A DNA stretch of 64,000 nt. Source: Escherichia phage vB_EcoM_G37-3. Of this stretch, positions 2,216 to 62,043 are shown piece by piece. The notes beneath the pieces were generated by a model, which was not told where the DNA came from, ran no database searches, and saw only the letters and a program-made list of their open reading frames with translations. The position numbers and the translations under genes were made by a program. The stretch is from the sequence record MK327941.1; one strand, 5' to 3'. How positions within the stretch are numbered: the stretch's first letter is position 1; every line of letters starts with the position of its first letter.

Positions 2216-2353
2216 TTACCCCGAACTCGTTTACAATCTGCGCTTTATAGTAACCACCGCGAGATGCCAATAGATAAGCTGGGCTTAGGTATTCGTATTC
2301 ACGGATTTCTACTTGTGCGTTTTCAGTTTCCCAAATCAGTAAAGTCCACATAT
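2216..2353 (-). CDS. Small ORF (about 45 aa) missed by the 60-aa ORF track
   Basis: ATG about 2351-2353 preceded by strong RBS AGGAGA and a PeSL-type promoter; MWTLLIWETENAQVEIREYEY... Confidence 0.3.
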
Positions 2354-2393
2354 TTGATTCTCCTGTAAAGTTGTATCTCGTCTTGATGAATAT

Positions 2394-2422
2394 AGTATAG
2401 GGGATCTCGCGATCCCCGTCAA
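2394..2422 (-). promoter_or_regulatory. Early sigma70-type promoter with spacer palindrome (PeSL-like)
   Basis: Minus strand: TTGACG, palindrome GGGGATCGCGAGATCCCC in spacer, -10 TATACT, then leader and AGGAGA RBS. Confidence 0.55.
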
Positions 2423-2431
2423 GCGTTTATT

Positions 2432-2974
2432 TTAATTTTTTCGAATGTATTCAGACCATTCCTTCCCTGTCAGTTCGGTCCCATTCTGGAAACTGAAATA
2501 TTCATACGGCATCGAGTCAAGATAAAACAGGATCATACATCGCGCCATATAATACCAATCACGATTAAAGTAAACTACGTTATCACCATTACCATCAGCA
2601 CCTTTATCATAACCATCGCGGGTACGGGCAACCCATTGAATAGTATCATTTTTCTCACGGATAATAACAGGTTCCCAATATCCAGCACATCCAGCATGAC
2701 CACACGAACAAGTAAGGAAATATTGACCTTTTGCTTTGTTGTCATCCCATTCACGATGGATTGGTTCGATCTCGTGAAACAATGCCAAGCAATCATGATT
2801 ATGCAACACTGGCTTACCATCAATCAATGCATGGAATGTATACAAACGACCAGTAGACAGATAGCTATCCTCACGCTCAACCAGTTCAATAGCAATCTTT
2901 TTAGCTCGTTCTTTGTGTCGTTGTGCTTTACGCTTACGGTTTAATGATTTCATATTCACCCCACACATTATCAA
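2432..2974 (-). CDS. Hypothetical protein (180 aa)
   Basis: Minus-strand ORF in gene chain, start overlaps stop of upstream gene (ATGA). Confidence 0.5.
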   Translation of the reverse strand: MIMCGVNMKSLNRKRKAQRHKERAKKIAIELVEREDSYLSTGRLYTFHALIDGKPVLHNHDCLALFHEIEPIHREWDDNKAKGQYFLTCSCGHAGCAGYWEPVIIREKNDTIQWVARTRDGYDKGADGNGDNVVYFNRDWYYMARCMILFYLDSMPYEYFSFQNGTELTGKEWSEYIRKN

Positions 2975-3510
2975 AGGTCGCGATATAGTACATTATGAAA
3001 ATGAGAACTTGCATTACCAATATTGTAGATAATAAATTCTTCATCCGGCGCTTGCGCTACAAATTGAGTATGAGCAACCGCCACAACCTTAAAAATACGA
3101 TCCGTGATCTTGTGTTTAATTTCTGCCCCTACTTCCATAGGAACATATTCATTTGTTTCTGTTTCAGTCGCAAAACAGCCATCTTCTTCATAAGCACGAA
3201 TAAATCGGTCGCAATCAGTACGCTTAACAAATTCAAGAGTATATAATTCTCGTGAATTGTCGGTATAGACCAATACAGAATTATTATGATAGCGAATCAC
3301 ATACAGGTTATTATCATCGTCAATTACGCAAAAGCTACGGATTCCTTCGCCTTGACTCCAGCAGATATTAACCACCGTTCCTCTAATAAAAAAACTTTCC
3401 TTTAAATTAAAACTAGCCAATGTGCTAGCGTGCATTTTAACAACAACACCATCACCAATTTCCAGTTTACGAAGTTTAACTTCTTTGCTCAGTACACAAA
3501 ACATCATCAT
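2971..3510 (-). CDS. Hypothetical protein (179 aa)
   Basis: ORF starting MMMFCVLSKE with RBS GAGGA upstream and PeSL-type promoter. Confidence 0.5.
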   Translation of the reverse strand: MMMFCVLSKEVKLRKLEIGDGVVVKMHASTLASFNLKESFFIRGTVVNICWSQGEGIRSFCVIDDDNNLYVIRYHNNSVLVYTDNSRELYTLEFVKRTDCDRFIRAYEEDGCFATETETNEYVPMEVGAEIKHKITDRIFKVVAVAHTQFVAQAPDEEFIIYNIGNASSHFHNVLYRDL

Positions 3511-5486: not shown

Positions 5487-5512
5487 AAAAAGCGGGATTT
5501 TCTCCCGCTCGT
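5487..5512 (-). terminator. Rho-independent terminator
   Basis: Minus strand hairpin GCGGGAGAAAATCCCGC followed by TTTTT. Confidence 0.5.
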
Positions 5513-13948: not shown

Positions 13949-13975
13949 TTATACGGGGATTTCTCCCCGTGTCAA
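13949..13975 (-). promoter_or_regulatory. Early promoter with spacer palindrome (PeSL-like)
   Basis: Minus strand TTGACA, spacer CGGGGAGAAATCCCCG, TATAAT. Confidence 0.6.
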
Positions 13976-20095: not shown

Positions 20096-20123
20096 TTTAA
20101 TACTCCTTTGTTTCGATGGGGGT

Positions 20124-20152
20124 ATATTACTACCCCCGTTTTGTTGTGTCAA
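20124..20152 (-). promoter_or_regulatory. Early promoter with palindrome around -10 (PeSL-like)
   Basis: Minus strand TTGACA, 17-nt spacer, TAATAT within GGGGGTAG...ACCCCC inverted repeat. Confidence 0.55.
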
Positions 20153-26771: not shown

Positions 26772-26800
26772 ATTGTAGGGGAGTTATCCTCCCCTGTCAA
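26772..26800 (-). promoter_or_regulatory. Early promoter with spacer palindrome (PeSL-like)
   Basis: Minus strand TTGACA, spacer GGGGAGGATAACTCCCC, TACAAT. Confidence 0.6.
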
Positions 26801-28552: not shown

Positions 28553-28583
28553 TTTGATTCTCCTTTCGTTTGTTTGTGGGGGT

Positions 28584-28612
28584 ATCTTACTACCCCCGTT
28601 TCATGTTGTCAA
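28584..28612 (-). promoter_or_regulatory. Early promoter with palindrome around -10 (PeSL-like)
   Basis: Minus strand TTGACA, 17-nt spacer, TAAGAT within GGGGGTAG...ACCCCC inverted repeat. Confidence 0.55.
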
Positions 28613-39601: not shown

Positions 39602-39854
39602 TTTTGATAAAGAGGTTATTGACGGTGCGGACCTATACTTTGAGGTTGGAGAGGTTCAGCATTATGACGACCTTATTTCATGGGATCTGGGTAAACTGAA
39701 TATCAATAGCGATCGCTTTACTGGTTCATATATTGAGTTGACAGCTAAACCGATTGCTGATAACATCTTTACTAAAGACGGTTCTTTGATCGTGTTTGAA
39801 AACGATCTCCGTCCTCAGTACACAACTATTAGTCTGGAGGCAATTGCTCAATGA
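39537..39854 (+). CDS. 6: gp6 C-terminal segment in +1 frame (ends with ATGA overlap onto gene 7)
   Basis: Open frame from 39537; stop TGA overlaps gene 7 ATG at 39851. Confidence 0.55.
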   Translation, partial: LNCWLDLSLLILQSLYRTSGTDFDKEVIDGADLYFEVGEVQHYDDLISWDLGKLNINSDRFTGSYIELTAKPIADNIFTKDGSLIVFENDLRPQYTTISLEAIAQ

Positions 39855-42800
39855 TTAAAGCGCCTAGTGTAACTAGCTTGACAATAGAAAAATTGTCTGC
39901 TAATCAGGCGTATATCACATGGGATGACGTAGGCGAAAACTTCTTTTATTTTGTGGAGTTAGCCGAAACCAGAACACGAGACGGGGAGATCATCCCCGTC
40001 GATGAGTTAAGCTGGGTAAACCTGGGATATACTGCCGAACAAAACTGGTTTGAGGATAAAAACCTTTTTCCAGAATATTATTACAAGTTTCGTGTAGCAG
40101 TAGCCGCAGAAGGATTTGAACAAAGTAAATGGGTTGAGACAGAAGAGTTTCAGACATTTAAAACAAACGCATATAATTTTTCTATGATGCGAGAGTTCAA
40201 CCTTGCAAACGAGTTTATAAAGGAAAAATTTACATACGATAATCGAGAGTATGTCAAGTTTAATACCGACCTTATTCAAGCATCATTGATGAAGGAAGAT
40301 TTTGTCTTTAGTCCTGAATATGCAAACATGACAAATATCTCAAACTACATTGTAGTTGATGAGAACTTTCATGAAATACAGGACCACATAGAAAAAGTTT
40401 GTACTGATATAAACCACACTATGTTAGCGGAAATGAACGGTGTTTTGTACCTTTTCGAACGGTTCCAGCCGATCGTGAAAGTGTCAAATGATAAAGGCCA
40501 ATCATGGAAGGCATACAAGGCTTTTAATGACCGTGTAGGCAATCCGGTTTCCCGTACATGCGTTTATCAGTCTAAAACCACTACTTACGTTTTAGGATAT
40601 GACCGAATCTTTTACGGACGACAAGCGAGCGATACTCGATGGAGCGCGGACGATGTTCGATTTAGTGATGATACGATCACTTTTGCAAAGGTCGGTGACG
40701 AAAACGATTTAGGCTTTGACGTTGAGGTCTTTGGTGTATTTTCCAGATTAACAGGTGATACCACAAAATACGCCGAAGCTATGGCGTGTAGTGATGACTA
40801 TTTGTGGGTTGGTGCTAAAGATGTTATTCGCCGGATTCGTCTTAAGAATACTCCTGTTGATACCGTACAGGGTTCGCCTACGTTTGGAGAAAAAATATTC
40901 GATCCTGATGTTATCCGAGTAACAGGAAATGATAAAGCTGTCATTCAGAAAATGGATGTGGTCGACGGTAAATTGCTTGTATTTGTTACGGGTGAAGTTA
41001 AACAGCGTTATCAAGATCCAACTAAACCAGAAAACGTTGTTCCGTCAGATGATGCGGGTGTATACTTAATAGGGAGTGATGGTCTGTCTTTTCAGAGAGT
41101 ATTTGGCAACACTCCGCAGGAAAGGGAATATATTCAGCATGGGTTCAGTAATATGTCAACCAATGGTGATGAGGTGTTCATAAGCCATTATAATCATCAC
41201 TTCGAAAGCATTTTACCTGATCCAGAAACTGCCGAGAAATATGAATTGGGAGAAGCTGTAAAATATTCTCATGAGCCAACTTATCTAACTGATAAGAAAA
41301 TACATCAAACTACTTTCAGAGCAAGTTATGATGATTTGCGTATTTGGGAGTTAGGACCGCAAGCGTATTATAATGAGGCCGATTATACATGGATGCGTCG
41401 AAACGGTGTCCGTGTGTGGATCACAAATGATAATCGCCCGTTGGTTGTTTATCCAGAGGTTATCTATACTCAAGAAGTTGATACATCTGGCATTCTTGAC
41501 CAAAATAGGATCAACCGAGAAGTTTATGATAAAGGGACCGTGACCTGTTATCTTAACAATGTTAAATTTGAAGGATTCAAACAATATGCATCCGGTGTAA
41601 TGTTCCATAAAAACACAGGAGAGATCATAGGATTCTATCAATTTAATTATCGTGTTCGTGATCAGGTTGGTGTATATTGGAAACCTACAAATGTAGCATT
41701 TGTTGCTGAATTGCAAAATCAGGTTCGAGAGGTTCCCTGGGTTCCGGTTCACTACGATCGAGAGCAAGATCCAGATTTGCGGCCTTTACTGAATAAGATG
41801 ACCCCTGATAGCTTTTTACTTGAGAACGAAAATTTCAGAAAATTCTCTGAATATTATCTGCAATTCTTAAGCGATGGTTCAGGAACATATTATAATAAAC
41901 TAAAAAATCTGATTAAAAACAAATATCCACGCGAGAAAGATGCATATGAGTATCTTTGGTCAGAGATGAACAAACGAAACATCTATGCAGATAAAAACAA
42001 GCGAGATGCGGTAGTAAGATTCTTTGAATCCCGCAAATCAGATTTTTATTCCACTAAGGGCGTGGAGGCTTCTTATAAGTTCTTGTTTAAGTTACTTTAT
42101 AATGAAGATGTGGAAATTGAGGTTGAATCACAAGCCGGACTAGAGTATGATATTGTTGTTAGTTCAACGAACATTGACGAGGATATCGTAGGTCGCACGA
42201 TTTATACTCCAACCGGACGGGCTAACGTGACGTATCTTGAAAGGGAATATGAAGGTGGTCGCCTACGCTGGCGAGTAACCATTCATAACCTGATCGGGCG
42301 GTTCGAAGAAGGTCAAGTGATCAAATCAGAGAAAACAGCGTTTGAAGGGATGATCCTTGTTGGTGTACGTGGTAAAGAGTTGTTGAGTAGTTCAATCGAC
42401 TATATCAACCGCTCACGAAGCCAATACACCATGAAGATTAAAAGTGCATTGCCAGTTTCGCGCTATGCAAATGATGTAATGCGATTCGTTCATCCTGTCG
42501 GCTTTGGGTTTATCGGTGTTACCCTGCTTACGATGTTCATTAACAGCGGGTTGAGCATGAAGCACACCGAGACGATAATTCAATCTCTGAAAAATTATAA
42601 GTTTGACAGCGGATTGCCTAGCGTGTATCCTGATCGGGTGGCAGACCTTGACGTTGACGGAAACATTAAGAAAGACCCGCTTACCGGAAAAGCATTATAT
42701 TTGACTTCACCTTTAATCGGTGATGAATTTCCGGTTCCTCCTGAATATGATCAGGAGAACAGCGAATTGTTCCACGGACTTAAAGCAAGCGAACGAAGAT

Positions 42801-42937
42801 TTGCAATGAGTCCACTGTTTGACCAGTCGGCGGTAACATTCTCTATGTTCCGTGAGCTTGTGGATAAACGGTTGAAGGATAATATAGGGAATCCACGCGA
42901 TCCGAAGAATCCGACACAGAGGAAAATTAATGGCTAA
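39851..42937 (+). CDS. 7: Baseplate wedge protein gp7
   Basis: 1028 aa, collinear with T4 gp7 (IKAPSVTSL, YLFERFQPIVKVSNDKGQSWKA, NPRDPKNPTQ). Confidence 0.92.
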   Translation: MIKAPSVTSLTIEKLSANQAYITWDDVGENFFYFVELAETRTRDGEIIPVDELSWVNLGYTAEQNWFEDKNLFPEYYYKFRVAVAAEGFEQSKWVETEEFQTFKTNAYNFSMMREFNLANEFIKEKFTYDNREYVKFNTDLIQASLMKEDFVFSPEYANMTNISNYIVVDENFHEIQDHIEKVCTDINHTMLAEMNGVLYLFERFQPIVKVSNDKGQSWKAYKAFNDRVGNPVSRTCVYQSKTTTYVLGYDRIFYGRQASDTRWSADDVRFSDDTITFAKVGDENDLGFDVEVFGVFSRLTGDTTKYAEAMACSDDYLWVGAKDVIRRIRLKNTPVDTVQGSPTFGEKIFDPDVIRVTGNDKAVIQKMDVVDGKLLVFVTGEVKQRYQDPTKPENVVPSDDAGVYLIGSDGLSFQRVFGNTPQEREYIQHGFSNMSTNGDEVFISHYNHHFESILPDPETAEKYELGEAVKYSHEPTYLTDKKIHQTTFRASYDDLRIWELGPQAYYNEADYTWMRRNGVRVWITNDNRPLVVYPEVIYTQEVDTSGILDQNRINREVYDKGTVTCYLNNVKFEGFKQYASGVMFHKNTGEIIGFYQFNYRVRDQVGVYWKPTNVAFVAELQNQVREVPWVPVHYDREQDPDLRPLLNKMTPDSFLLENENFRKFSEYYLQFLSDGSGTYYNKLKNLIKNKYPREKDAYEYLWSEMNKRNIYADKNKRDAVVRFFESRKSDFYSTKGVEASYKFLFKLLYNEDVEIEVESQAGLEYDIVVSSTNIDEDIVGRTIYTPTGRANVTYLEREYEGGRLRWRVTIHNLIGRFEEGQVIKSEKTAFEGMILVGVRGKELLSSSIDYINRSRSQYTMKIKSALPVSRYANDVMRFVHPVGFGFIGVTLLTMFINSGLSMKHTETIIQSLKNYKFDSGLPSVYPDRVADLDVDGNIKKDPLTGKALYLTSPLIGDEFPVPPEYDQENSELFHGLKASERRFAMSPLFDQSAVTFSMFRELVDKRLKDNIGNPRDPKNPTQRKING

Positions 42938-44613: not shown

Positions 44614-45452
44614 TGGCACGACTTTCTAAACAAGAACAAAAATTACACGATCGGGTGATGGAGTTGATTAATTCAGATCGCCCATTGACATATGAAGAAA
44701 AAGAATTTTGCTATAATAACTATCATGGCGATGGTCTAGGCGGTTCAGGTGCATTCTTTACCCCAGAAGGGCTTGCATGGGATTTTACCATCGATGCACA
44801 TTGCACAGGAAAAGTATTAGATCTTTGTGCTGGGATCGGTCGCTTATCTTTTTGTATGTTACATCGTTGTAAGCCAGAAAAGATCGTATGCGTCGAACTC
44901 AATCCAGAATTTGCGCGGATTGGCAAGCGACTATTACCGGAGGCAGAATGGATCACCAGCGATGTATTCGAATTTGAGTCAAACGAAAAATTCGATGTGG
45001 TGATCAGCAATCCACCCTTCGGGAAAATCAATACAACCGACACAAAGGATGTATTTGAGTACACTGGTGGCGAATTTGAATTTAAGGTTATGACATTAGG
45101 CCAGAAGTTTGCCGATGTAGGTTATTTTATTGTTCCTTCTGGTTCCGCTGGTTTTGCCTATTCCGGCAGACCTTATTATGACGGGACCATGAAGTCTAAT
45201 AAATATCTAAAATGGAGCAAACAAACTGGTTTGGTGACTTATGCCGGATGTGGGATCGATACATCAATCTATCGTGATGAATGGCATAGTACCAACGTTT
45301 TAACAGAAGTGGTTGAGGTTCGGTATTACGAGAAAGAAGCCGTAGAAGCGCCTAAATCACGTCCTAACGAACAAATAGAAGAAAGTAAGGAGATTACCTT
45401 ACCGAAACAGGAAAGCGAGTCTGGGACGCTCTCAGATTTGTTTGACATTTAA
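44613..45452 (+). CDS. Putative gamma-class amino-methyltransferase (N6-adenine-type, NPPF motif), cassette gene 3
   Basis: FFTPEGLAWDF (motif X), VLDLCAGIGRLS (motif I), DVVISNPPFGK (motif IV) in order X-I-IV. Confidence 0.65.
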   Translation: MARLSKQEQKLHDRVMELINSDRPLTYEEKEFCYNNYHGDGLGGSGAFFTPEGLAWDFTIDAHCTGKVLDLCAGIGRLSFCMLHRCKPEKIVCVELNPEFARIGKRLLPEAEWITSDVFEFESNEKFDVVISNPPFGKINTTDTKDVFEYTGGEFEFKVMTLGQKFADVGYFIVPSGSAGFAYSGRPYYDGTMKSNKYLKWSKQTGLVTYAGCGIDTSIYRDEWHSTNVLTEVVEVRYYEKEAVEAPKSRPNEQIEESKEITLPKQESESGTLSDLFDI

Positions 45453-45454
45453 TT

Positions 45455-45482
45455 ATAAGCCGTCCTTGTGGACGGCTTTTTT
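45455..45482 (+). terminator. Rho-independent terminator after cassette
   Basis: Hairpin AGCCGTCC-TTGT-GGACGGCT followed by TTTTTT. Confidence 0.65.
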
Positions 45483-45492
45483 GTATGTGTTT

Positions 45493-45500
45493 TATAAATA
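45493..45500 (+). promoter_or_regulatory. T4-type late promoter TATAAATA upstream of gene 9
   Basis: Exact TATAAATA about 27 nt before gene 9 ATG. Confidence 0.6.
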
Positions 45501-45527: not shown

Positions 45528-46382
45528 ATGGCACAAGTTCCAAAGAAAAGAATAGACACAGGTACTGTCGGCAATCCATCGACTGGCGATATCTTATATG
45601 ATGGCGGTAATAAAATTAACGATAACTTTGATTCAATATATGACGCATTTGCTGATCAACGTCTAAAAGAGATTGATCATGGTGCTGGTCGAATGGTTAT
45701 TCATGCCACGGGATACTATCAGAAACACCCACGACAAAGCTATGCAGGGTCGGCGGTAGAGATTGGTAGCTTACATGATATTGACACAACTCAAGGCGCA
45801 TTAATAGCAATTCTTCCTAAAGCTAAAGTCGGTGAGGGTGTTGTGTTCATAAATAGTAACGGTAGCTTTTCGGCAACAACACCACTAAACATTAGAACTC
45901 AAGCAGGAGATTCTATTAGCGGGTATTCCGGTGACGCGGTAATAACTCAACCTTTCTCAAAAGTCACCGTCTGGTGTACTGCCGTCGAAGGTAGTAGAGT
46001 TACCTGGCGGCTAGGCATCGAAAGTATGTTTACCGACACAACCACACCACTAGATAGGACAGTTAATGTAACTGGAGTTGCAACCAACGTTGCTATTGCA
46101 GCAAAAACAGAATATGTATCAATTAAACTATTAACAACCGCTAGCAATACGACGGGTTCAAAAATGCGCTCAAGCGAAACTCTATTGATGATTGATGCCA
46201 GAGCCGGAAAAGTTTACGCGACAGAATATGCGGTTTTACAGAAAACAGAAGACGAATTATACACGGTTCGTTATTTCATTGGTTCCGGCGATAAAGTATA
46301 TGCAGAGTATAAGGCTACTGGCGAAAATATTCGTTTAGCAGTTAAAGCCACAGACACTATTAAAATCGGGGTTGCTACATGA
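45528..46382 (+). CDS. 9: Baseplate wedge / long tail fibre socket protein gp9
   Basis: KKRIDTGTVGNPSTGDILYDGGNKINDNFDSIYDAF matches T4 gp9. Confidence 0.9.
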   Translation: MAQVPKKRIDTGTVGNPSTGDILYDGGNKINDNFDSIYDAFADQRLKEIDHGAGRMVIHATGYYQKHPRQSYAGSAVEIGSLHDIDTTQGALIAILPKAKVGEGVVFINSNGSFSATTPLNIRTQAGDSISGYSGDAVITQPFSKVTVWCTAVEGSRVTWRLGIESMFTDTTTPLDRTVNVTGVATNVAIAAKTEYVSIKLLTTASNTTGSKMRSSETLLMIDARAGKVYATEYAVLQKTEDELYTVRYFIGSGDKVYAEYKATGENIRLAVKATDTIKIGVAT

Positions 46383-55258: not shown

Positions 55259-57576
<2,318 letters not shown>

Positions 57577-57610
57577 ATACGATAATGCATAAAAAGATGA
57601 GGAAATTCTA

Positions 57611-59608
57611 ATGACTCTATTATCACCGGGTTTCGAAACGAAAGAAACTACTCTCTCCACTACCATTGTGCAATCTGCGACTGGTCGCGCGGCACTGGTG
57701 GGTAAATTCCAATGGGGTCCAGCTTTCCAGATTGTTCAAGTAACTAATGAAGTTGAATTAGTTAATAAATTTGGTCAGCCGGATAATAACACCGCAGACT
57801 ATTTCATGAGCGGGGCTAACTTCCTCCAGTATGGCAATGACCTGCGTGTTGTTCGTGTACTCAATAAAGAAAAAGCAAAAAACGCAACTGTCCTAGCTGG
57901 TAACGTAGAGTTTGAAATCACAAACGAAGGTTCTAACTACAAAGTAGGCGATTCAATTAAAGTAAAATACAATCGTCAGGATGTTGAAACCGCTGGCAAA
58001 GTAACCAAAGTAGATACCGAAGGTAAAATTAAAGGTATTTTCATCCCAACCGGGAAAATCATTTCTCTGGCTAAATCCATTGGTGTTTACCCTAATCTGG
58101 ATGGGTTTACCGTAGAAATCACTTCCGGCACTGGTAACTCAACTGCGGCAATTACCATTTCCAAAATTGTAACCGATTCCGGTCTTCTCTTAACGGATCT
58201 GGAAACTTCCCGTGCCAATATCACAAATCAAACTTTCTTGACTAAACTCAAGAAATATGATATGCCAGCGGTAAGTGCAATCTATGCGGGTGAGATCGGG
58301 GACTCTCTGGAAGTCGAGATCCTAGCACGTAGTGCGTTTAAGAACACCGCACCGGATCTGACAATGTATCCTTACGGCGGTACTCGCACCGCAGCACGCA
58401 ACCTGATTCCATATGCACCGCAGAATGATAATCAATATGCGTTTATTGTTCGTCGTGATGGTGTTGTGGTAGAATCCTATGTACTGTCTACTCTGAAAGG
58501 GGATAAAGACGTATACGGCAATTCTATCTATATGGACGACTTCTTTGCTCGTGGTTCTAGCCAGTACATCTATGCAACCGCTCAGGGCTGGGTAGATGGT
58601 TTCAGTGGTATTATCTCTCTTGCTGGTGGTGTGTCTGCTAACGAAGCAACGATCGGTGGAGTTGGTGCTGATCCGTTCATCGGTGCGATGATGCAAGGTT
58701 GGGATCTGTTTGCTGAACGAGAATCTATTCACGTAAACCTGTTGATTGCTGGTGCATGTGCTGGCGAAGGCGATGCGTTCTCTACCGTACAGAAACATGC
58801 TGTTTCCATCGGTGATGAGCGTCAGGATTGCTTAGTAATGGTTTCTCCGCCGCGTAGCACTGTTGTTAATATTCCGGTGACTACTGCAATTGATAACCTG
58901 ATTGCATGGCGCGAAGGTTCAGGAAACTATAATGAAAACAACATGAACATTAATACCACTTACGCGGTTATTGATGGTAACTACAAATATCAGTATGACA
59001 AATACAACGACGTAAACCGTTGGGTTCCGTTGGCTGCTGATATTGCTGGTTTGTGCGCTCGTACTGATGCTGTATCCCAGCCGTGGATGAGTCCGGCAGG
59101 TTATAACCGTGGTCAGATCATGAACGTGGTTAAACTGGCAATTGAGCCTCGTAAGGCGCACCGCGATCGTCTGTATCAGGCCGCAATTAACCCGGTAATC
59201 GGTGCTGGCGGTGAAGGGTTTATCCTAATGGGTGATAAAACCGCTACGACTGTTCCTAGCCCGTTTGACCGCATTAACGTTCGTCGTCTGTTTAACATGC
59301 TGAAAAAGAATATCGGCGATTCAAGCAAATACAAACTGTTTGAAAACAACGATAACTTTACTCGCGCTTCCTTCCGTATGGAGGTTTCGCAATATCTCAG
59401 CACGATTCGCTCTCTGGGTGGCATTTATGACTTCCGAGTACAATGCGACACCACGAATAACACGCCGGATGTAATTGATCGTAACGAATTTGTTGCTAGT
59501 ATGTTCATCAAACCAGCAAAATCGATCAACTATATCATGCTCAATTTCACTGCTGTTGCAACTGGTTCTGATTTTGACGAAATTATCGGTCCAGCTAACC
59601 AGGCATAA
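57611..59608 (+). CDS. 18: Tail sheath protein gp18
   Basis: MTLLSPGFETKETT... and extensive identity blocks with T4 gp18. Confidence 0.95.
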   Translation: MTLLSPGFETKETTLSTTIVQSATGRAALVGKFQWGPAFQIVQVTNEVELVNKFGQPDNNTADYFMSGANFLQYGNDLRVVRVLNKEKAKNATVLAGNVEFEITNEGSNYKVGDSIKVKYNRQDVETAGKVTKVDTEGKIKGIFIPTGKIISLAKSIGVYPNLDGFTVEITSGTGNSTAAITISKIVTDSGLLLTDLETSRANITNQTFLTKLKKYDMPAVSAIYAGEIGDSLEVEILARSAFKNTAPDLTMYPYGGTRTAARNLIPYAPQNDNQYAFIVRRDGVVVESYVLSTLKGDKDVYGNSIYMDDFFARGSSQYIYATAQGWVDGFSGIISLAGGVSANEATIGGVGADPFIGAMMQGWDLFAERESIHVNLLIAGACAGEGDAFSTVQKHAVSIGDERQDCLVMVSPPRSTVVNIPVTTAIDNLIAWREGSGNYNENNMNINTTYAVIDGNYKYQYDKYNDVNRWVPLAADIAGLCARTDAVSQPWMSPAGYNRGQIMNVVKLAIEPRKAHRDRLYQAAINPVIGAGGEGFILMGDKTATTVPSPFDRINVRRLFNMLKKNIGDSSKYKLFENNDNFTRASFRMEVSQYLSTIRSLGGIYDFRVQCDTTNNTPDVIDRNEFVASMFIKPAKSINYIMLNFTAVATGSDFDEIIGPANQA

Positions 59609-59641
59609 TCAGTAAATTAGCATAGATTAAAAGTTAAATCA

Positions 59642-59661
59642 AGCGGGGAGAAAATCCCCGC
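59642..59661 (+). other. Conserved stem-loop between genes 18 and 19
   Basis: AGCGGGGAG-AAAA-TCCCCGCT hairpin. Confidence 0.5.
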
Positions 59662-59681
59662 TCTATTAAGGAATATCAATT

Positions 59682-60176
59682 ATGGCACTCGATTTGAATG
59701 ATATTACACGCGGTTTCGAGTCTGGCGATTTTGCTCGTCCTAACCTGTTTGAAGTTGAGATACCGTATCTGGGGCAAAACTTTAAGCTGATGTGTAAGGC
59801 TGCGACTGTCCCGGCTGCTACCGTAGAAAAAATTGCTGTAGGCTATCAAAACCGTAAAATTAACATCGCTGGCGACCGTGTATACGACGACTGGACCATC
59901 ACTGTATTCAACGATGACGCACACAAGATCCGTGATGCTATCGTTGCATGGAGCGATCAGACACACGGCACTGGTTCGGCGATCACTGGTGCAACTCCTG
60001 CACAATATAAGAAACAAGCTATTGTTCGTCAACTTAACCGTAACACCGAATCAACTAGCGAAAAAACATTGTACGGTATTTTCCCAACCAACGTTGGTGA
60101 AGTAACCCTCGATTGGGAACAAAACAACGAAGTTGAAACGTTTGAAGTTACTTTTGCTATCGATTGGGTAGAATAA
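59682..60176 (+). CDS. 19: Tail tube protein gp19
   Basis: 164-aa ORF between sheath and portal genes, size and position as T4 gp19. Confidence 0.88.
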   Translation: MALDLNDITRGFESGDFARPNLFEVEIPYLGQNFKLMCKAATVPAATVEKIAVGYQNRKINIAGDRVYDDWTITVFNDDAHKIRDAIVAWSDQTHGTGSAITGATPAQYKKQAIVRQLNRNTESTSEKTLYGIFPTNVGEVTLDWEQNNEVETFEVTFAIDWVE

Positions 60177-60188
60177 ATATATTATCAT

Positions 60189-60207
60189 GCGGGGAGAAGT
60201 TCCCCGC
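60189..60207 (+). other. Conserved stem-loop between genes 19 and 20
   Basis: GCGGGGAGAAGTTCCCCGC hairpin, near-identical to hairpin at 59642-59661. Confidence 0.5.
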
Positions 60208-60234
60208 CTAATTTCTCCCAATTCGAGGTGAATA

Positions 60235-61800
60235 ATGTTTAGTAGATTAAAAATGCTTGCGCGTTGGGCTGATTTTGACAACGACAAATACGAAGAACAA
60301 ATTAAAGATAAAGCAGAGTCTATCGCCGCACCTAAAAACAATGATGGTGCTACGGAAGTAGAAATTAATGATAATTCACCTGCTAGCTCGTGGAACTCTC
60401 TTACCCAGCAATTTTACAGCACCGACCAGAAAATCAGCACAACTAAGCAATTAGTTAACACATATCGCGGTTTGATGAATAACCATGAAGTCGAAAACGC
60501 TGTACAAAATATCGTTAACGATGCGATTGTATTTGAAGAAGGTCATGAAGTTGTTTCATTAAATCTTGAGGCGACTGGCTTTAGTGAATCTGTAAAAGAG
60601 CGCATTCATGAAGAATTTAAAGATCTTTTAAACACTATCCAGTTTGATAGACGCGGTCAGGATATGTTCCGTCGCTGGTATGTCGATTCTCGTATTTTCT
60701 TCCATAAAATCATCGGCAAAAATCCAAAAGATGGTATCATAGAATTACGCCAGCTTGACCCACGTAATCTTGAATACGTTCGAGAGATCATTACAGAAGA
60801 CACACCGGAAGGTAAAATTTATAAAGCAACGAAAGAATATTTCATTTACACTGTAGGCAATAGCTCTTATTGCGCAGGTGGTCAAGTATTCTCTCCTAAT
60901 AGTCGCGTTAAAATCCCGCGTAGTGCTATTACATACGCTCACAGCGGCTTGATGGATTGCGATGATAAATATATCATTGGTTATTTGCATCGGGCTGTTA
61001 AGCCAGCAAACCAGCTTAAATTGTTGGAAGACGCAATGGTCGTTTATCGTATCACGCGTGCACCGGAACGCCGAGTGTTCTTTATTGATACCGGAAACAT
61101 GAACAACCGCAAGGCTGCACAGCACATGAACTCAGTGGCACAGTCTTTTAAAAACCGCGTTGTTTATGATGCATCGACTGGTAAACTTAAAAACCAGCAA
61201 GCAAATCTATCAATGACAGAGGACTACTGGTTACAGCGTCGAGATGGTAAAGCAATCACCGACGTTACTACTTTACCAGGTGCATCCGGTATGAGTGATA
61301 TCGATGATATTCGCTACTTTAACCGTAAATTGTATGAAGCGTTGCGTGTGCCATTGTCACGTAGCAATCTCTCCGATGCAAATATGGTGATCGGTGGTGA
61401 CGGTTCAGAAATTACTCGCGATGAGTTGGAATTTTCGAAATTCATTAGAACTCTGCAATCACAGTTTTCGGAAGTATTGCGCGATCCGCTTAAATATAAT
61501 CTGATTCTCAAAAATGTAATTACGGAAGACGATTGGGATCGTGAAATAAATAATATCAAGGTGGTTTTCCATCGGGACTCTTACTATACAGAAGTTAAAG
61601 ACGCGGAAATTTTAGAGCGTCGAATCGGTCTAATCGAACGTATTACACCTTACATTGGTAAATATTTCTCTAACCAGACAGTGATGCGTGACATTCTGAA
61701 ATATACCGATGACCAGATGGACACCGAGAAGAAACAGATCGAAGAAGAAGCGAACGATCCGCGCTTTAAACAAACTCCCGATGAAATAGAGGATTTTTAA
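60235..61800 (+). CDS. 20: Portal vertex protein gp20
   Basis: Identity blocks with T4 gp20 (RRWYVDSRIFFHKII, GYLHRAVKPANQLKLLEDA, MTEDYWLQRRDGKA). Confidence 0.92.
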   Translation: MFSRLKMLARWADFDNDKYEEQIKDKAESIAAPKNNDGATEVEINDNSPASSWNSLTQQFYSTDQKISTTKQLVNTYRGLMNNHEVENAVQNIVNDAIVFEEGHEVVSLNLEATGFSESVKERIHEEFKDLLNTIQFDRRGQDMFRRWYVDSRIFFHKIIGKNPKDGIIELRQLDPRNLEYVREIITEDTPEGKIYKATKEYFIYTVGNSSYCAGGQVFSPNSRVKIPRSAITYAHSGLMDCDDKYIIGYLHRAVKPANQLKLLEDAMVVYRITRAPERRVFFIDTGNMNNRKAAQHMNSVAQSFKNRVVYDASTGKLKNQQANLSMTEDYWLQRRDGKAITDVTTLPGASGMSDIDDIRYFNRKLYEALRVPLSRSNLSDANMVIGGDGSEITRDELEFSKFIRTLQSQFSEVLRDPLKYNLILKNVITEDDWDREINNIKVVFHRDSYYTEVKDAEILERRIGLIERITPYIGKYFSNQTVMRDILKYTDDQMDTEKKQIEEEANDPRFKQTPDEIEDF

Positions 61801-62043
61801 ATGAAACAATTTATCGAAGCAATTGAAACTCGCGATCTAACGCTGATCGAAAAAGAATTTGATAAGATCATGGAGGCTAAAAAAGCCCAGATCATCGAAT
61901 CCCAGCGTGTCGAAATCGCATCCAGTATCATGATCGAAGGTGAAGAAGAAAAAGACCGCGATGATGAAAAAGATATGGATGATGAGGACGACGAAGACGA
62001 AGATCGCAAAGACGATAAAAAAGACAAAGAAGACGACGAATAA
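61801..62043 (+). CDS. 67: Prohead core protein gp67
   Basis: 80-aa protein with highly acidic C-terminus, position as T4 gp67. Confidence 0.7.
   Translation: MKQFIEAIETRDLTLIEKEFDKIMEAKKAQIIESQRVEIASSIMIEGEEEKDRDDEKDMDDEDDEDEDRKDDKKDKEDDE

What the first reader, a model, noticed from the sequence alone, without database searches (positions are those of the whole stretch)
59642..60207. Near-identical 19-bp hairpins on both sides of the tail tube gene 19
GCGGGGAGAAAATCCCCGC (59642-59661) and GCGGGGAGAAGTTCCCCGC (60189-60207) flank gene 19. Neither is followed by a strong T-run, so they are unlikely to be simple terminators. They may be RNA processing or stability elements that set the sheath-to-tube-to-portal expression ratio, or sites for recombination.
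Basis: seen in the sequence. Interest (0 to 1): 0.35.

Follow-up and report, generated by a model that had tools for sequence, protein, structure and literature searches.

The report
Ordinary intercistronic hairpins flanking tail-tube gene
The two look-alike hairpins around the tail tube gene are real, but they are ordinary members of a well-known class of RNA stem-loops that T4-like phages place after their late genes, and one of them was already published as a predicted terminator in 2006.

Summary
The window is an RB49-like T4-type phage (Krischvirus), 100% identical to vB_EcoM_G5211. Both hairpins exist: HP1 at 59642-59662 (8-bp stem, loop GAAAA) and HP2 at 60189-60207 (7-bp stem, loop GAAGT). 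They match at 17 of 19 bases and neither has a good T-run.

They are not special to gene 19. The genome holds about 20 intergenic "G-run, loop, C-run" stem-loops. They are about 16-fold enriched in non-coding DNA, and 18 of 22 have the G-rich arm first on the transcribed strand. The exact HP1 stem recurs between tail-fibre genes 36 and 37.

In 13 genera of T4-like phages, 25 of 26 regions after gene 18 and gene 19 carry a strong hairpin, with unrelated stem sequences.

HP2 was predicted as the RB49 "19-->20" terminator in 2006. Both hairpins are annotated as putative terminators in GenBank MK327932.

Most likely they act on the late gene 18-19-20 mRNA as 3'-end barriers or weak attenuators. 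This is inferred, not shown. They are not PeSLs, because no early promoter is present.

Small extras: the HP1 loop equals the HP2 loop in 6 of 58 relatives and is flipped in JSE and Skers. Low interest; already known.

The parts
59642..59662 (+). HP1: stem A59642-A59649 paired with T59655-T59662 (8 bp), loop GAAAA 59650-59654. It lies 34 nt after the gene 18 stop codon and 5 nt before the gene 19 Shine-Dalgarno sequence.
   Evidence: -15.9 kcal/mol; z -5.3
60189..60207 (+). HP2: stem G60189-A60195 paired with T60201-C60207 (7 bp), loop GAAGT 60196-60200. It lies 12 nt after the gene 19 stop codon. It corresponds to RB49 89423-89441, the published TransTerm terminator '19-->20'.
   Evidence: -13.7 kcal/mol; Nolan 2006 supplement
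57611..59608 (+). gene 18, tail sheath (665 aa)
59682..60176 (+). gene 19, tail tube (164 aa)
60235..61800 (+). gene 20, portal (521 aa)
57572..57579 (+). TATAAATA late promoter motif 39 nt upstream of gene 18. It matches RB49 Pl:86777, and the next predicted late promoter in RB49 is Pl:92358. HP1 and HP2 therefore lie inside one predicted late transcription unit.
60172..60179 (+). AATAAATA, the A(-13) variant of the late-promoter octamer. It overlaps the gene 19 stop codon. The predicted start is about 60185, which would put HP2 at +5 of a gene 20 transcript. It was not called as a promoter in RB49 by Nolan 2006.
60210..60219 (+). AATTTCTCCC, which can pair with GGGAGAAGTT (60192-60201). This alternative to HP2 is nearly isoenergetic but is not conserved in phage JK32.
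13953..13970 (-). Family member in the early region: TTGAC-ACGGGGAGAAATCCCCGT-ATAAT. The same stem-loop type sits in the spacer of a sigma-70-type early promoter, which makes it a PeSL.
5491..5509 (-). Family member AGCGGGAGAAAATCCCGCT followed by TTTT, which is the terminator form of the same hairpin.
39980..40000 (+). Related hairpin GACGGGGAGATCATCCCCGTC lying inside the 1028-aa ORF 39851-42937.

Best explanation
HP1 and HP2 are two copies of this phage's standard intercistronic RNA stem-loop: a G-run, a short loop and a C-run. They are transcribed as part of the late gene 18-19-20 message, which starts at the TATAAATA promoter before gene 18.

Each folds into a very stable hairpin just after the stop codon of the upstream gene. 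There it probably blocks 3'-to-5' exonucleases, and it may pause or weakly terminate RNA polymerase. Messages ending after gene 18, or after genes 18-19, would then be more abundant or longer-lived than the part that runs on into the portal gene. By established T4 knowledge the portal is needed in far fewer copies: 12, against about 138 each for sheath and tube.

The two look alike because all such hairpins in this genome share one 'dialect'. That dialect is kept by selection for the same stable fold and probably by occasional sequence exchange between copies.

Shown here: the structures, their family, their orientation, and the conservation of their position. Inferred: the effect on RNA ends and on protein ratios.
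For: 1. **Family.** The genome has 58 perfect GC-rich hairpins. Of these, 32 lie in the roughly 7% that is non-coding. Among those between co-directional genes, 18 have the G-rich arm first on the transcribed strand and 4 have the C-rich arm first. This holds on both strands, as expected for an RNA-level element.
2. **Close relatives in the same genome.** The same 8-bp stem as HP1 sits between tail-fibre genes 36 and 37. Close variants lie at window 5491 and 13953.
3. **Conserved position.** In 13 Straboviridae genera, 25 of 26 regions after gene 18 and gene 19 hold a hairpin far beyond shuffled controls (z -2 to -7), with unrelated stem sequences. The sense strand is the more stable one in 19 of 26.
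4. **One transcription unit.** RB49 has no predicted early or late promoter between Pl:86777 (before gene 18) and Pl:92358, so both hairpins are internal to one late unit.
5. **Experimental precedent.** A stem-loop of this G(N)-loop-C(N) type from RB49/phi1 reduced downstream lacZ expression about as much as rrnB T1 (PMC2839356).
6. **Earlier predictions.** HP2 is the TransTerm '19-->20' terminator of RB49 (PMC1524935 supplement). Both are annotated as putative terminators in MK327932.
7. **Variation among relatives.** Every loop variant seen in 58 Krischvirus genomes keeps the stem and a fold of -15 to -16 kcal/mol.
Against: - No transcript 3'-end, half-life or protein-ratio data exist for any Krischvirus.
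- The T-tracts are poor. The classical terminator score is negative for both hairpins (formula recalled from memory), so real termination may be negligible.
- Stem conservation within the genus is not statistically distinguishable from the low background divergence. I estimate about 1.4 changes expected in the stem by chance, using the variable sites seen.
- HP1 sits between two genes needed in equal numbers, so a ratio-setting role is less obvious there.
Confidence: 0.6

Rival explanations
1. HP2 is mainly a 5'-terminal stabiliser. A variant late promoter, AATAAATA at 60172-60179, starts a gene 20 transcript at about 60185. HP2 would then sit 4 nt from the 5' end and protect that mRNA from 5'-end-dependent decay, as the ompA 5' hairpin does.
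For: - A(-13) variants make up 9 of 50 listed T4 late promoters, and A or T is common at -13 in RB49.
- Kanagawavirus and Gaprivervirus have TATAAATA, then about 9-12 nt (including TATTAT), then a hairpin, in the same place.
- In the window, all four + strand TATAAATA motifs lie 35-40 nt before an ATG. This one lies 63 nt before, and the extra length corresponds roughly to the hairpin.
Against: - Nolan 2006 did not call a late promoter here in RB49.
- AATAAATA also occurs inside genes, at 45198 and 61545.
- In Slopekvirus and Pseudotevenvirus the predicted start falls inside the stem, so the arrangement is not general.
- It does not explain HP1, which has no late-promoter motif nearby.
Confidence: 0.15
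2. The hairpins are chiefly DNA-level recombination substrates, like PeSLs but without a promoter. They would mediate gene conversion or module exchange around gene 19.
For: - The HP1 loop is GAAGT, identical to HP2, in 6 of 58 Krischvirus records and one IMG/VR contig. It is exactly inverted (TTTTC) in JSE and Skers.
- In RB49, a PeSL crossover was mapped within a stem-loop loop (PMC2839356).
- The 18/19 and 19/20 regions take up optional ORFs in many T4-like phages.
Against: - The strong strand-orientation bias of the family points to RNA, not DNA.
- Recombination between two direct repeats flanking an essential gene would delete it.
- A 19-bp homology is very short.
- The phiS insertion next to HP1 is an HNH-like homing-endonuclease-family gene found in 238 T4-like records, often at this same site. 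Homing explains it.
- Arbiol et al. report that PeSLs are rare in virion modules.
Confidence: 0.1
3. They are protein-binding or cleavage sites, for example targets of the RegB nuclease (GGAG) or a translational operator for gene 19 or gene 20.
For: Both hairpins contain GGAG followed by purines. HP1 ends 5 nt before the gene 19 Shine-Dalgarno sequence. HP2 has a nearly isoenergetic alternative pairing with AAUUUCUCCC.
Against: - The RegB site is 11 nt of single-stranded GGAGRAYARAA. Structured GGAGs are resistant, and RegB does not accelerate late mRNA decay. Here GGA is in the stem and positions 7 and 9-11 do not fit.
- Neither Shine-Dalgarno sequence is sequestered by the hairpins.
- The alternative pairing is lost in JK32.
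- No Rfam family matches.
Confidence: 0.05

Closest known systems
Predicted rho-independent terminators and intercistronic stable hairpins of T4-like phages (TransTerm sets of Nolan et al. 2006, PMC1524935; T4 tetraloop hairpins of Tuerk et al. 1988, recalled from memory)
   Same: A GC-rich stem with a short, often GNRA- or UUCG-type loop, placed just after a stop codon between co-directional genes. HP2 is literally on the published RB49 list ('19-->20', 89423-89441). The T4 and RB69-type phages carry (A)TGGGGAGAAATCCCCA(T) after gene 19, with the same GGGGA-GAA-TCCCC core.
   Different: HP1 and HP2 lack a usable U-tract, so by classical criteria they are not canonical intrinsic terminators. 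HP1 was not on the 2006 list.
PeSLs, promoter-early stem-loops of RB49/phi1 (Arbiol et al. 2010, PMC2839356; Comeau et al. 2014, PMC4122927)
   Same: The same phage genus and the same G(N)-loop-C(N) stem-loop dialect. The window PeSL at 13953-13970 differs from HP1 only by its closing pair and one loop base.
   Different: There are no sigma-70-type -35/-10 hexamers at working spacing around HP1. Only a chance-level 9/12 match lies before HP2. RB49 has no predicted early promoter between 73.8 and 98.3 kb. The hairpins sit in a late virion operon on the late strand, next to core genes rather than ORFans.
REP-type intercistronic stabilisers in E. coli operons (malE-malF; Newbury et al. 1987, recalled from memory)
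   Same: A stable hairpin between two cistrons of one operon that shields the upstream segment from 3' exonucleases and so raises the upstream/downstream expression ratio. This is the mechanism proposed here.
   Different: There is no sequence relationship. REPs are host elements bound by host proteins. The effect of the phage hairpins on decay has not been measured.

Membership tests
T4-like intercistronic stem-loop / predicted terminator | Stable GC-rich hairpin with a short loop, well beyond shuffled sequence | tested here: met
   Fold energies are -15.9 and -13.7 kcal/mol. None of 60 shuffles does as well. Perfect 8-bp and 7-bp stems.
T4-like intercistronic stem-loop / predicted terminator | Lies in an intergenic region just downstream of a stop codon, oriented with the flanking genes | tested here: met
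   HP1 lies 34 nt after the gene 18 stop and HP2 12 nt after the gene 19 stop. Family orientation is 18 G-first against 4 C-first.
T4-like intercistronic stem-loop / predicted terminator | A hairpin at the same position in related phages | tested here: met
   25 of 26 regions after gene 18 and gene 19 in 13 genera. All Krischvirus sequences read directly carry both hairpins, and the HP1 region is conserved in all 58 records.
Canonical intrinsic (rho-independent) terminator | U-rich tract immediately after the stem | tested here: not met
   The tails are CTATTAAGGA and CTAATTTCTC. T-scores are 1.9 and 1.1, and d-scores are -13.5 and -31.5, against +10 to +40 for the phage's T-run terminators. 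The simple scan does accept HP2, with 5 T in 8.
Canonical intrinsic (rho-independent) terminator | RNA 3' ends generated at the site in vivo or in vitro | not testable with these tools
   No transcriptome or Term-seq data were found for Krischvirus.
PeSL (promoter-early stem-loop) | G(N)-loop-C(N) stem-loop in an intergenic region | tested here: met
PeSL (promoter-early stem-loop) | Sigma-70-type early promoter (-35 and -10 hexamers, AT-rich upstream) combined with the stem-loop | tested here: not met
   HP1: TTAAAT and TATTAA lie 24 nt apart. HP2: only a 9/12 match at 60154-60183, in a scan that finds no more sites than shuffles give. None of the 51 published RB49 early promoters lies between 73,830 and 98,352.
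PeSL (promoter-early stem-loop) | Association with variable ORFans in hyperplastic regions | tested here: not met
   They flank the core genes 18, 19 and 20 in the virion module.
RegB nuclease target | 11 nt of single-stranded GGAGRAYARAA | tested here: not met
   GGA is base-paired. The HP1 sequence GGAGAAAAUCC fails at positions 7 and 9-11.
Any Rfam RNA family | Covariance-model match | tested here: not met
   Only chance-level hits, with E of 1.5 or more, in 57000-62000.

The most novel reading that the evidence does not exclude
The late-operon hairpins are promoter-less relatives of PeSLs that evolve in concert. Sequence passes between HP1 and HP2, which are 19/19 identical in several relatives. 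Loops also flip by intramolecular recombination across the stem arms, as in JSE and Skers. If so, the stem-loop 'dialect' of a T4-like genome is maintained by DNA exchange even inside the conserved virion module, and not only by selection on RNA folding.
Probability: 0.25. Interest if true: 0.3.

Novelty: already known. Interest (0 to 1): 0.12.

Why it matters
It matters little beyond annotation. It shows that the pair is not a gene-19-specific device. It is the local instance of a conserved rule in T4-like phages: each abundant late gene is followed by a stable stem-loop. For anyone engineering these therapy-relevant phages, the hairpins are likely expression-tuning parts that should be kept when genes are moved. 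The loop exchange and loop flip among relatives are a small, cheap data point on how such elements evolve.

Tried and rejected
- **Rfam scan of 57000-62000:** nothing above chance.
- **PeSL membership:** rejected, because no early promoter is present.
- **RegB target:** rejected on sequence and structure.
- **HP2 alternative pairing as a switch on gene 20 translation:** the two folds are nearly isoenergetic in the window, but the alternative is lost in JK32 and the Shine-Dalgarno sequence is only half-occluded in every genus. Kept only as a passing note.
- **phiS insertion beside HP1 as evidence of hairpin-mediated recombination:** rejected. The insert is an HNH-like homing-endonuclease-family ORF that recurs at this site in many T4-like phages.
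- **Covariation test within Krischvirus:** not informative, because the stems never vary.
- **Quick tree of gene 19 to polarise the HP1 loop states:** unresolved, and the UPWr_E1 anchor mis-hit.
- **Literature:** no transcript-end data for Krischvirus or for T4 genes 18-20 in the held library. Desplats 2002 and Miller 2003 are not held, and the Arbiol supplement is not held. One supplement text search failed because of tab-separated text and was replaced by reading the table.

Full report
**What the window is.** The region 59300-60500 is 100% identical to Escherichia phage vB_EcoM_G5211 (MK327947) and 99.5% identical to RB49. Both are Krischvirus, the 'pseudo-T-even' branch of the T4-like phages. 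The ORFs are gene 18 (sheath, 57611-59608), gene 19 (tail tube, 59682-60176) and gene 20 (portal, 60235-61800), all on the + strand.

**The observation.**
- HP1 is GCGGGGAGAAAATCCCCGC at 59643-59661. An A-T pair at 59642/59662 extends the stem to 8 bp.
- HP2 is GCGGGGAGAAGTTCCCCGC at 60189-60207, with a 7-bp stem.
- They differ at two loop bases.
- The pattern with up to three mismatches is expected 0.08 times in the window.
- The hairpins fold at -15.9 and -13.7 kcal/mol and beat all 60 shuffles of their intergenic regions.
- The tails, CTATTAAGGA and CTAATTTCTC, are poor T-tracts.
- With the classical hairpin-plus-T-tract score (formula recalled from memory), they score -13.5 and -31.5. The phage's T-run terminators score +10 to +40.

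**The pair belongs to a genome-wide family.** I assembled the whole genome from the window plus three fetched pieces.
- There are 58 perfect hairpins with a stem of at least 6 bp and at least 5 G-C pairs.
- Of these, 32 lie in the roughly 7% of the genome outside ORFs, an enrichment of about 16-fold.
- Of the 23 that lie between co-directional genes, 18 have the G-rich arm first on the transcribed strand and 4 have the C-rich arm first (binomial about 0.004). This holds in the leftward early regions and in the rightward late regions.
- The four C-first cases include the three highest-scoring T-run terminators; the fourth, at genome 13954, was left out.
- Close relatives of HP1 and HP2:
  - AGCGGGGA-TTA-TCCCCGCT between tail-fibre genes 36 and 37, with a stem identical to HP1.
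  - AGCGGGAGAAAATCCCGCT followed by TTTT, at window 5491 on the minus strand.
  - ACGGGGAGAAATCCCCGT at window 13953 on the minus strand.
  - GACGGGGAGATCATCCCCGTC inside a large ORF at 39980.
- The near-identity of HP1 and HP2 therefore reflects a shared 'dialect', not a device built around gene 19.

**Relation to PeSLs.** In this very genus, Arbiol et al. described about 50 PeSLs per genome. Each combines a sigma-70-type early promoter with a G(N)-loop-C(N) stem-loop.
- One such stem-loop cut downstream lacZ expression about as much as rrnB T1.
- Recombination between PeSLs shuffles small ORFs (PMC2839356; PMC4122927).
- The window shows textbook cases, for example TTGAC-ACGGGGAGAAATCCCCGT-ATAAT at 13953-13970.
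- HP1 and HP2 have the stem-loop but not the promoter. Around HP1 the nearest hexamer-like strings are 24 nt apart. Before HP2 there is only a 9/12 match, in a scan that finds no more sites than shuffles give.
- None of the 51 published RB49 early promoters lies between 73.8 and 98.3 kb.
- They are therefore not PeSLs, although they use the same hairpin.

**Transcription context.**
- On the + strand of the window, TATAAATA occurs four times, each 35-40 nt before an ATG. One copy is at 57572, before gene 18.
- The published RB49 late-promoter set has Pl:86777 (that site) and then nothing until Pl:92358.
- Both hairpins therefore sit inside one predicted late unit covering genes 18, 19, 20 and beyond.
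- An AATAAATA at 60172-60179 overlaps the gene 19 stop codon. A at -13 is a common variant in T4 (9 of 50 sites) and in RB49.
- Kanagawavirus and Gaprivervirus have TATAAATA plus TATTAT plus a hairpin at the same place.
- HP2 could therefore also be the 5' end of a gene 20 transcript. This is possible but unproven, and it is not general across genera.

**Conservation.**
- In twelve further Straboviridae genera, the region after gene 18 and the region after gene 19 almost always hold a strong hairpin soon after the stop codon.
- Counting the window, that is 25 of 26 regions, with z from -2 to -7 against shuffles.
- The stems are unrelated in sequence and the loops are often GAAA, UUCG or GCAA.
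- The only exception is the Dhakavirus 19/20 region, where an HNH endonuclease gene is inserted.
- The sense strand is the more stable one in 19 of 26 cases (one-sided sign test about 0.014).
- T4-type and RB69-type phages carry (A)TGGGGAGAAATCCCCA(T) after gene 19, with the same core as here.
- Conservation of structure and position without conservation of sequence is the strongest sign that the fold itself is functional.

**Variation within Krischvirus.**
- The stems never vary. All change is in the loops.
- HP1 has GAAAA in most genomes.
- It has GAAGT, identical to HP2, in JK32, pEJ01, Whisky, MIZ2, MIZ3 and MIZ6, and in one IMG/VR contig.
- It has GAAA in G2248 and TAAAA in UPWr_E1.
- It has the exact inverse, TTTTC, in JSE and Skers.
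- HP2 has GAAGT everywhere except JK32, which has TTAT.
- All variants fold at -15 to -16 kcal/mol.
- Loop identity is thus not required.
- The flip and the HP2-like loop hint at DNA-level exchange, but divergence is too low to test stem constraint statistically.

**Prior knowledge.**
- HP2 is listed as the TransTerm terminator '19-->20', 89423-89441, 7 bp, in the RB49 supplement of Nolan et al. 2006.
- Both hairpins are annotated as putative transcriptional terminators (-14.2 and -13.7) in MK327932.
- HP1 is annotated as a terminator in MN894885, on the minus strand, which is probably the wrong one.
- Nothing here is new as an object.

**Mechanism.**
- I commit to RNA-level action in cis on the late polycistronic mRNA.
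- Each hairpin is a barrier to 3' exonucleases and a pause or weak termination point after gene 18 and after gene 19.
- This favours the upstream segments over the portal gene, in the manner of REP elements in malEFG (established knowledge, recalled from memory).
- The stoichiometry argument uses about 138 copies each of gp18 and gp19 against 12 of gp20 in T4, which is established knowledge. It fits HP2 better than HP1.
- All functional steps are inferred. I found no transcript-end data for this genus.

**Rivals considered.**
- A 5'-stabiliser role for HP2 (see the transcription context above).
- DNA recombination sites. The orientation bias, the essential gene between the repeats, and the homing-endonuclease explanation for the phiS insertion argue against this as the main role.
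- A RegB or operator site. The structured GGAG and the poor fit to GGAGRAYARAA argue against it.

**Verdict.** The feature is real and ordinary, and it is already described and annotated. The score is low.

Noticed in passing
window 13953-13970 (-), 2400-2417 (-), 26777-26795 (-): Textbook PeSLs. A G-run/loop/C-run hairpin fills the spacer between TTGAC(A) and a TATAAT-like -10 of early promoters. Examples are TTGAC-ACGGGGAGAAATCCCCGT-ATAAT and TTGAC-GGGGATCGCGAGATCCCC-TATACT.
   Followed up: partly
window 20118-20137 (-) and 28578-28597 (-): A second pair of near-identical hairpins, GGGGGTAGTAATATACCCCC and GGGGGTAGTAAGATACCCCC. Each lies 9 nt downstream of TTGACA, which looks like another PeSL subclass with the -10 inside the loop.
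   Followed up: no
window 39980-40000 (+): A hairpin of the same family, GACGGGGAGATCATCCCCGTC, lies inside the 1028-aa ORF 39851-42937 rather than between genes. It folds at about -22.7 kcal/mol in a 71-nt context.
   Followed up: no
window 60192-60229 (+): GGGAGAAGTT in HP2 can pair instead with AATTTCTCCC (60210-60219); the two folds score -17.4 and -17.6 kcal/mol. A UCCC...GGAG mini-hairpin partly covering the gene 20 Shine-Dalgarno sequence recurs upstream of gene 20 in many genera. The alternative pairing is lost in JK32.
   Followed up: partly
L021 (phiS, PP449093) 2350-3050: phiS has a 199-aa ORF inserted between gene 18 and HP1. It is preceded by its own hairpin, GGGGGAGGTCAACTCCCCCC. 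The protein has an HNH-like C-terminus, is 36% identical to the ORF between genes 18 and 19 of a Dhakavirus, and has relatives in 238 T4-like phage records, often at this same site. It looks like a freestanding homing endonuclease that targets the 18/19 spacer.
   Followed up: partly
L026 (JSE) 347-425; Skers MW748999: The HP1 loop is the exact reverse complement (GCGGGGATTTTCTCCCCGC) of the usual form. This is a loop flip between the inverted stem arms.
   Followed up: partly
L011 (Acinetobacter phage, Lazarusvirus) after gene 18 and after gene 19: The late-promoter octamer TATAAATA sits in the loop of both long hairpins (GGCTCTCTATAAATAAAAATATAGAGAGCC and TCCGATTGGTATAAATAAACTTATATCAATCGGA). 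This is a late-promoter counterpart of the PeSL arrangement.
   Followed up: no
L010 (Vibrio phage D482) flanks of gene 19: The two hairpins flanking gene 19 also share a stem there, GAGGGGCG...: a different dialect with the same pairing of look-alikes.
   Followed up: no
genome MK327947 151225-151243 (outside the window; L029 5631-5649): AGCGGGGATTATCCCCGCT followed by TTTCT, between tail-fibre genes 36 and 37. It has the same 8-bp stem as HP1.
   Followed up: partly
L001 (Ec_Makalu_001, MN894885) 3342-3362: HP1 is annotated as a terminator on the minus strand, opposite to all the surrounding genes. This is probably a strand error from an automatic predictor, because the minus-strand tail has more T.
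   Followed up: no
window 45457-45500 (+): A canonical terminator, AAGCCGTCCTTGTGGACGGCTT followed by TTTT, is followed 14 nt later by TATAAATA before the ORF at 45528 (gene 9 in RB49). This is a composite terminator plus late-promoter unit.
   Followed up: no
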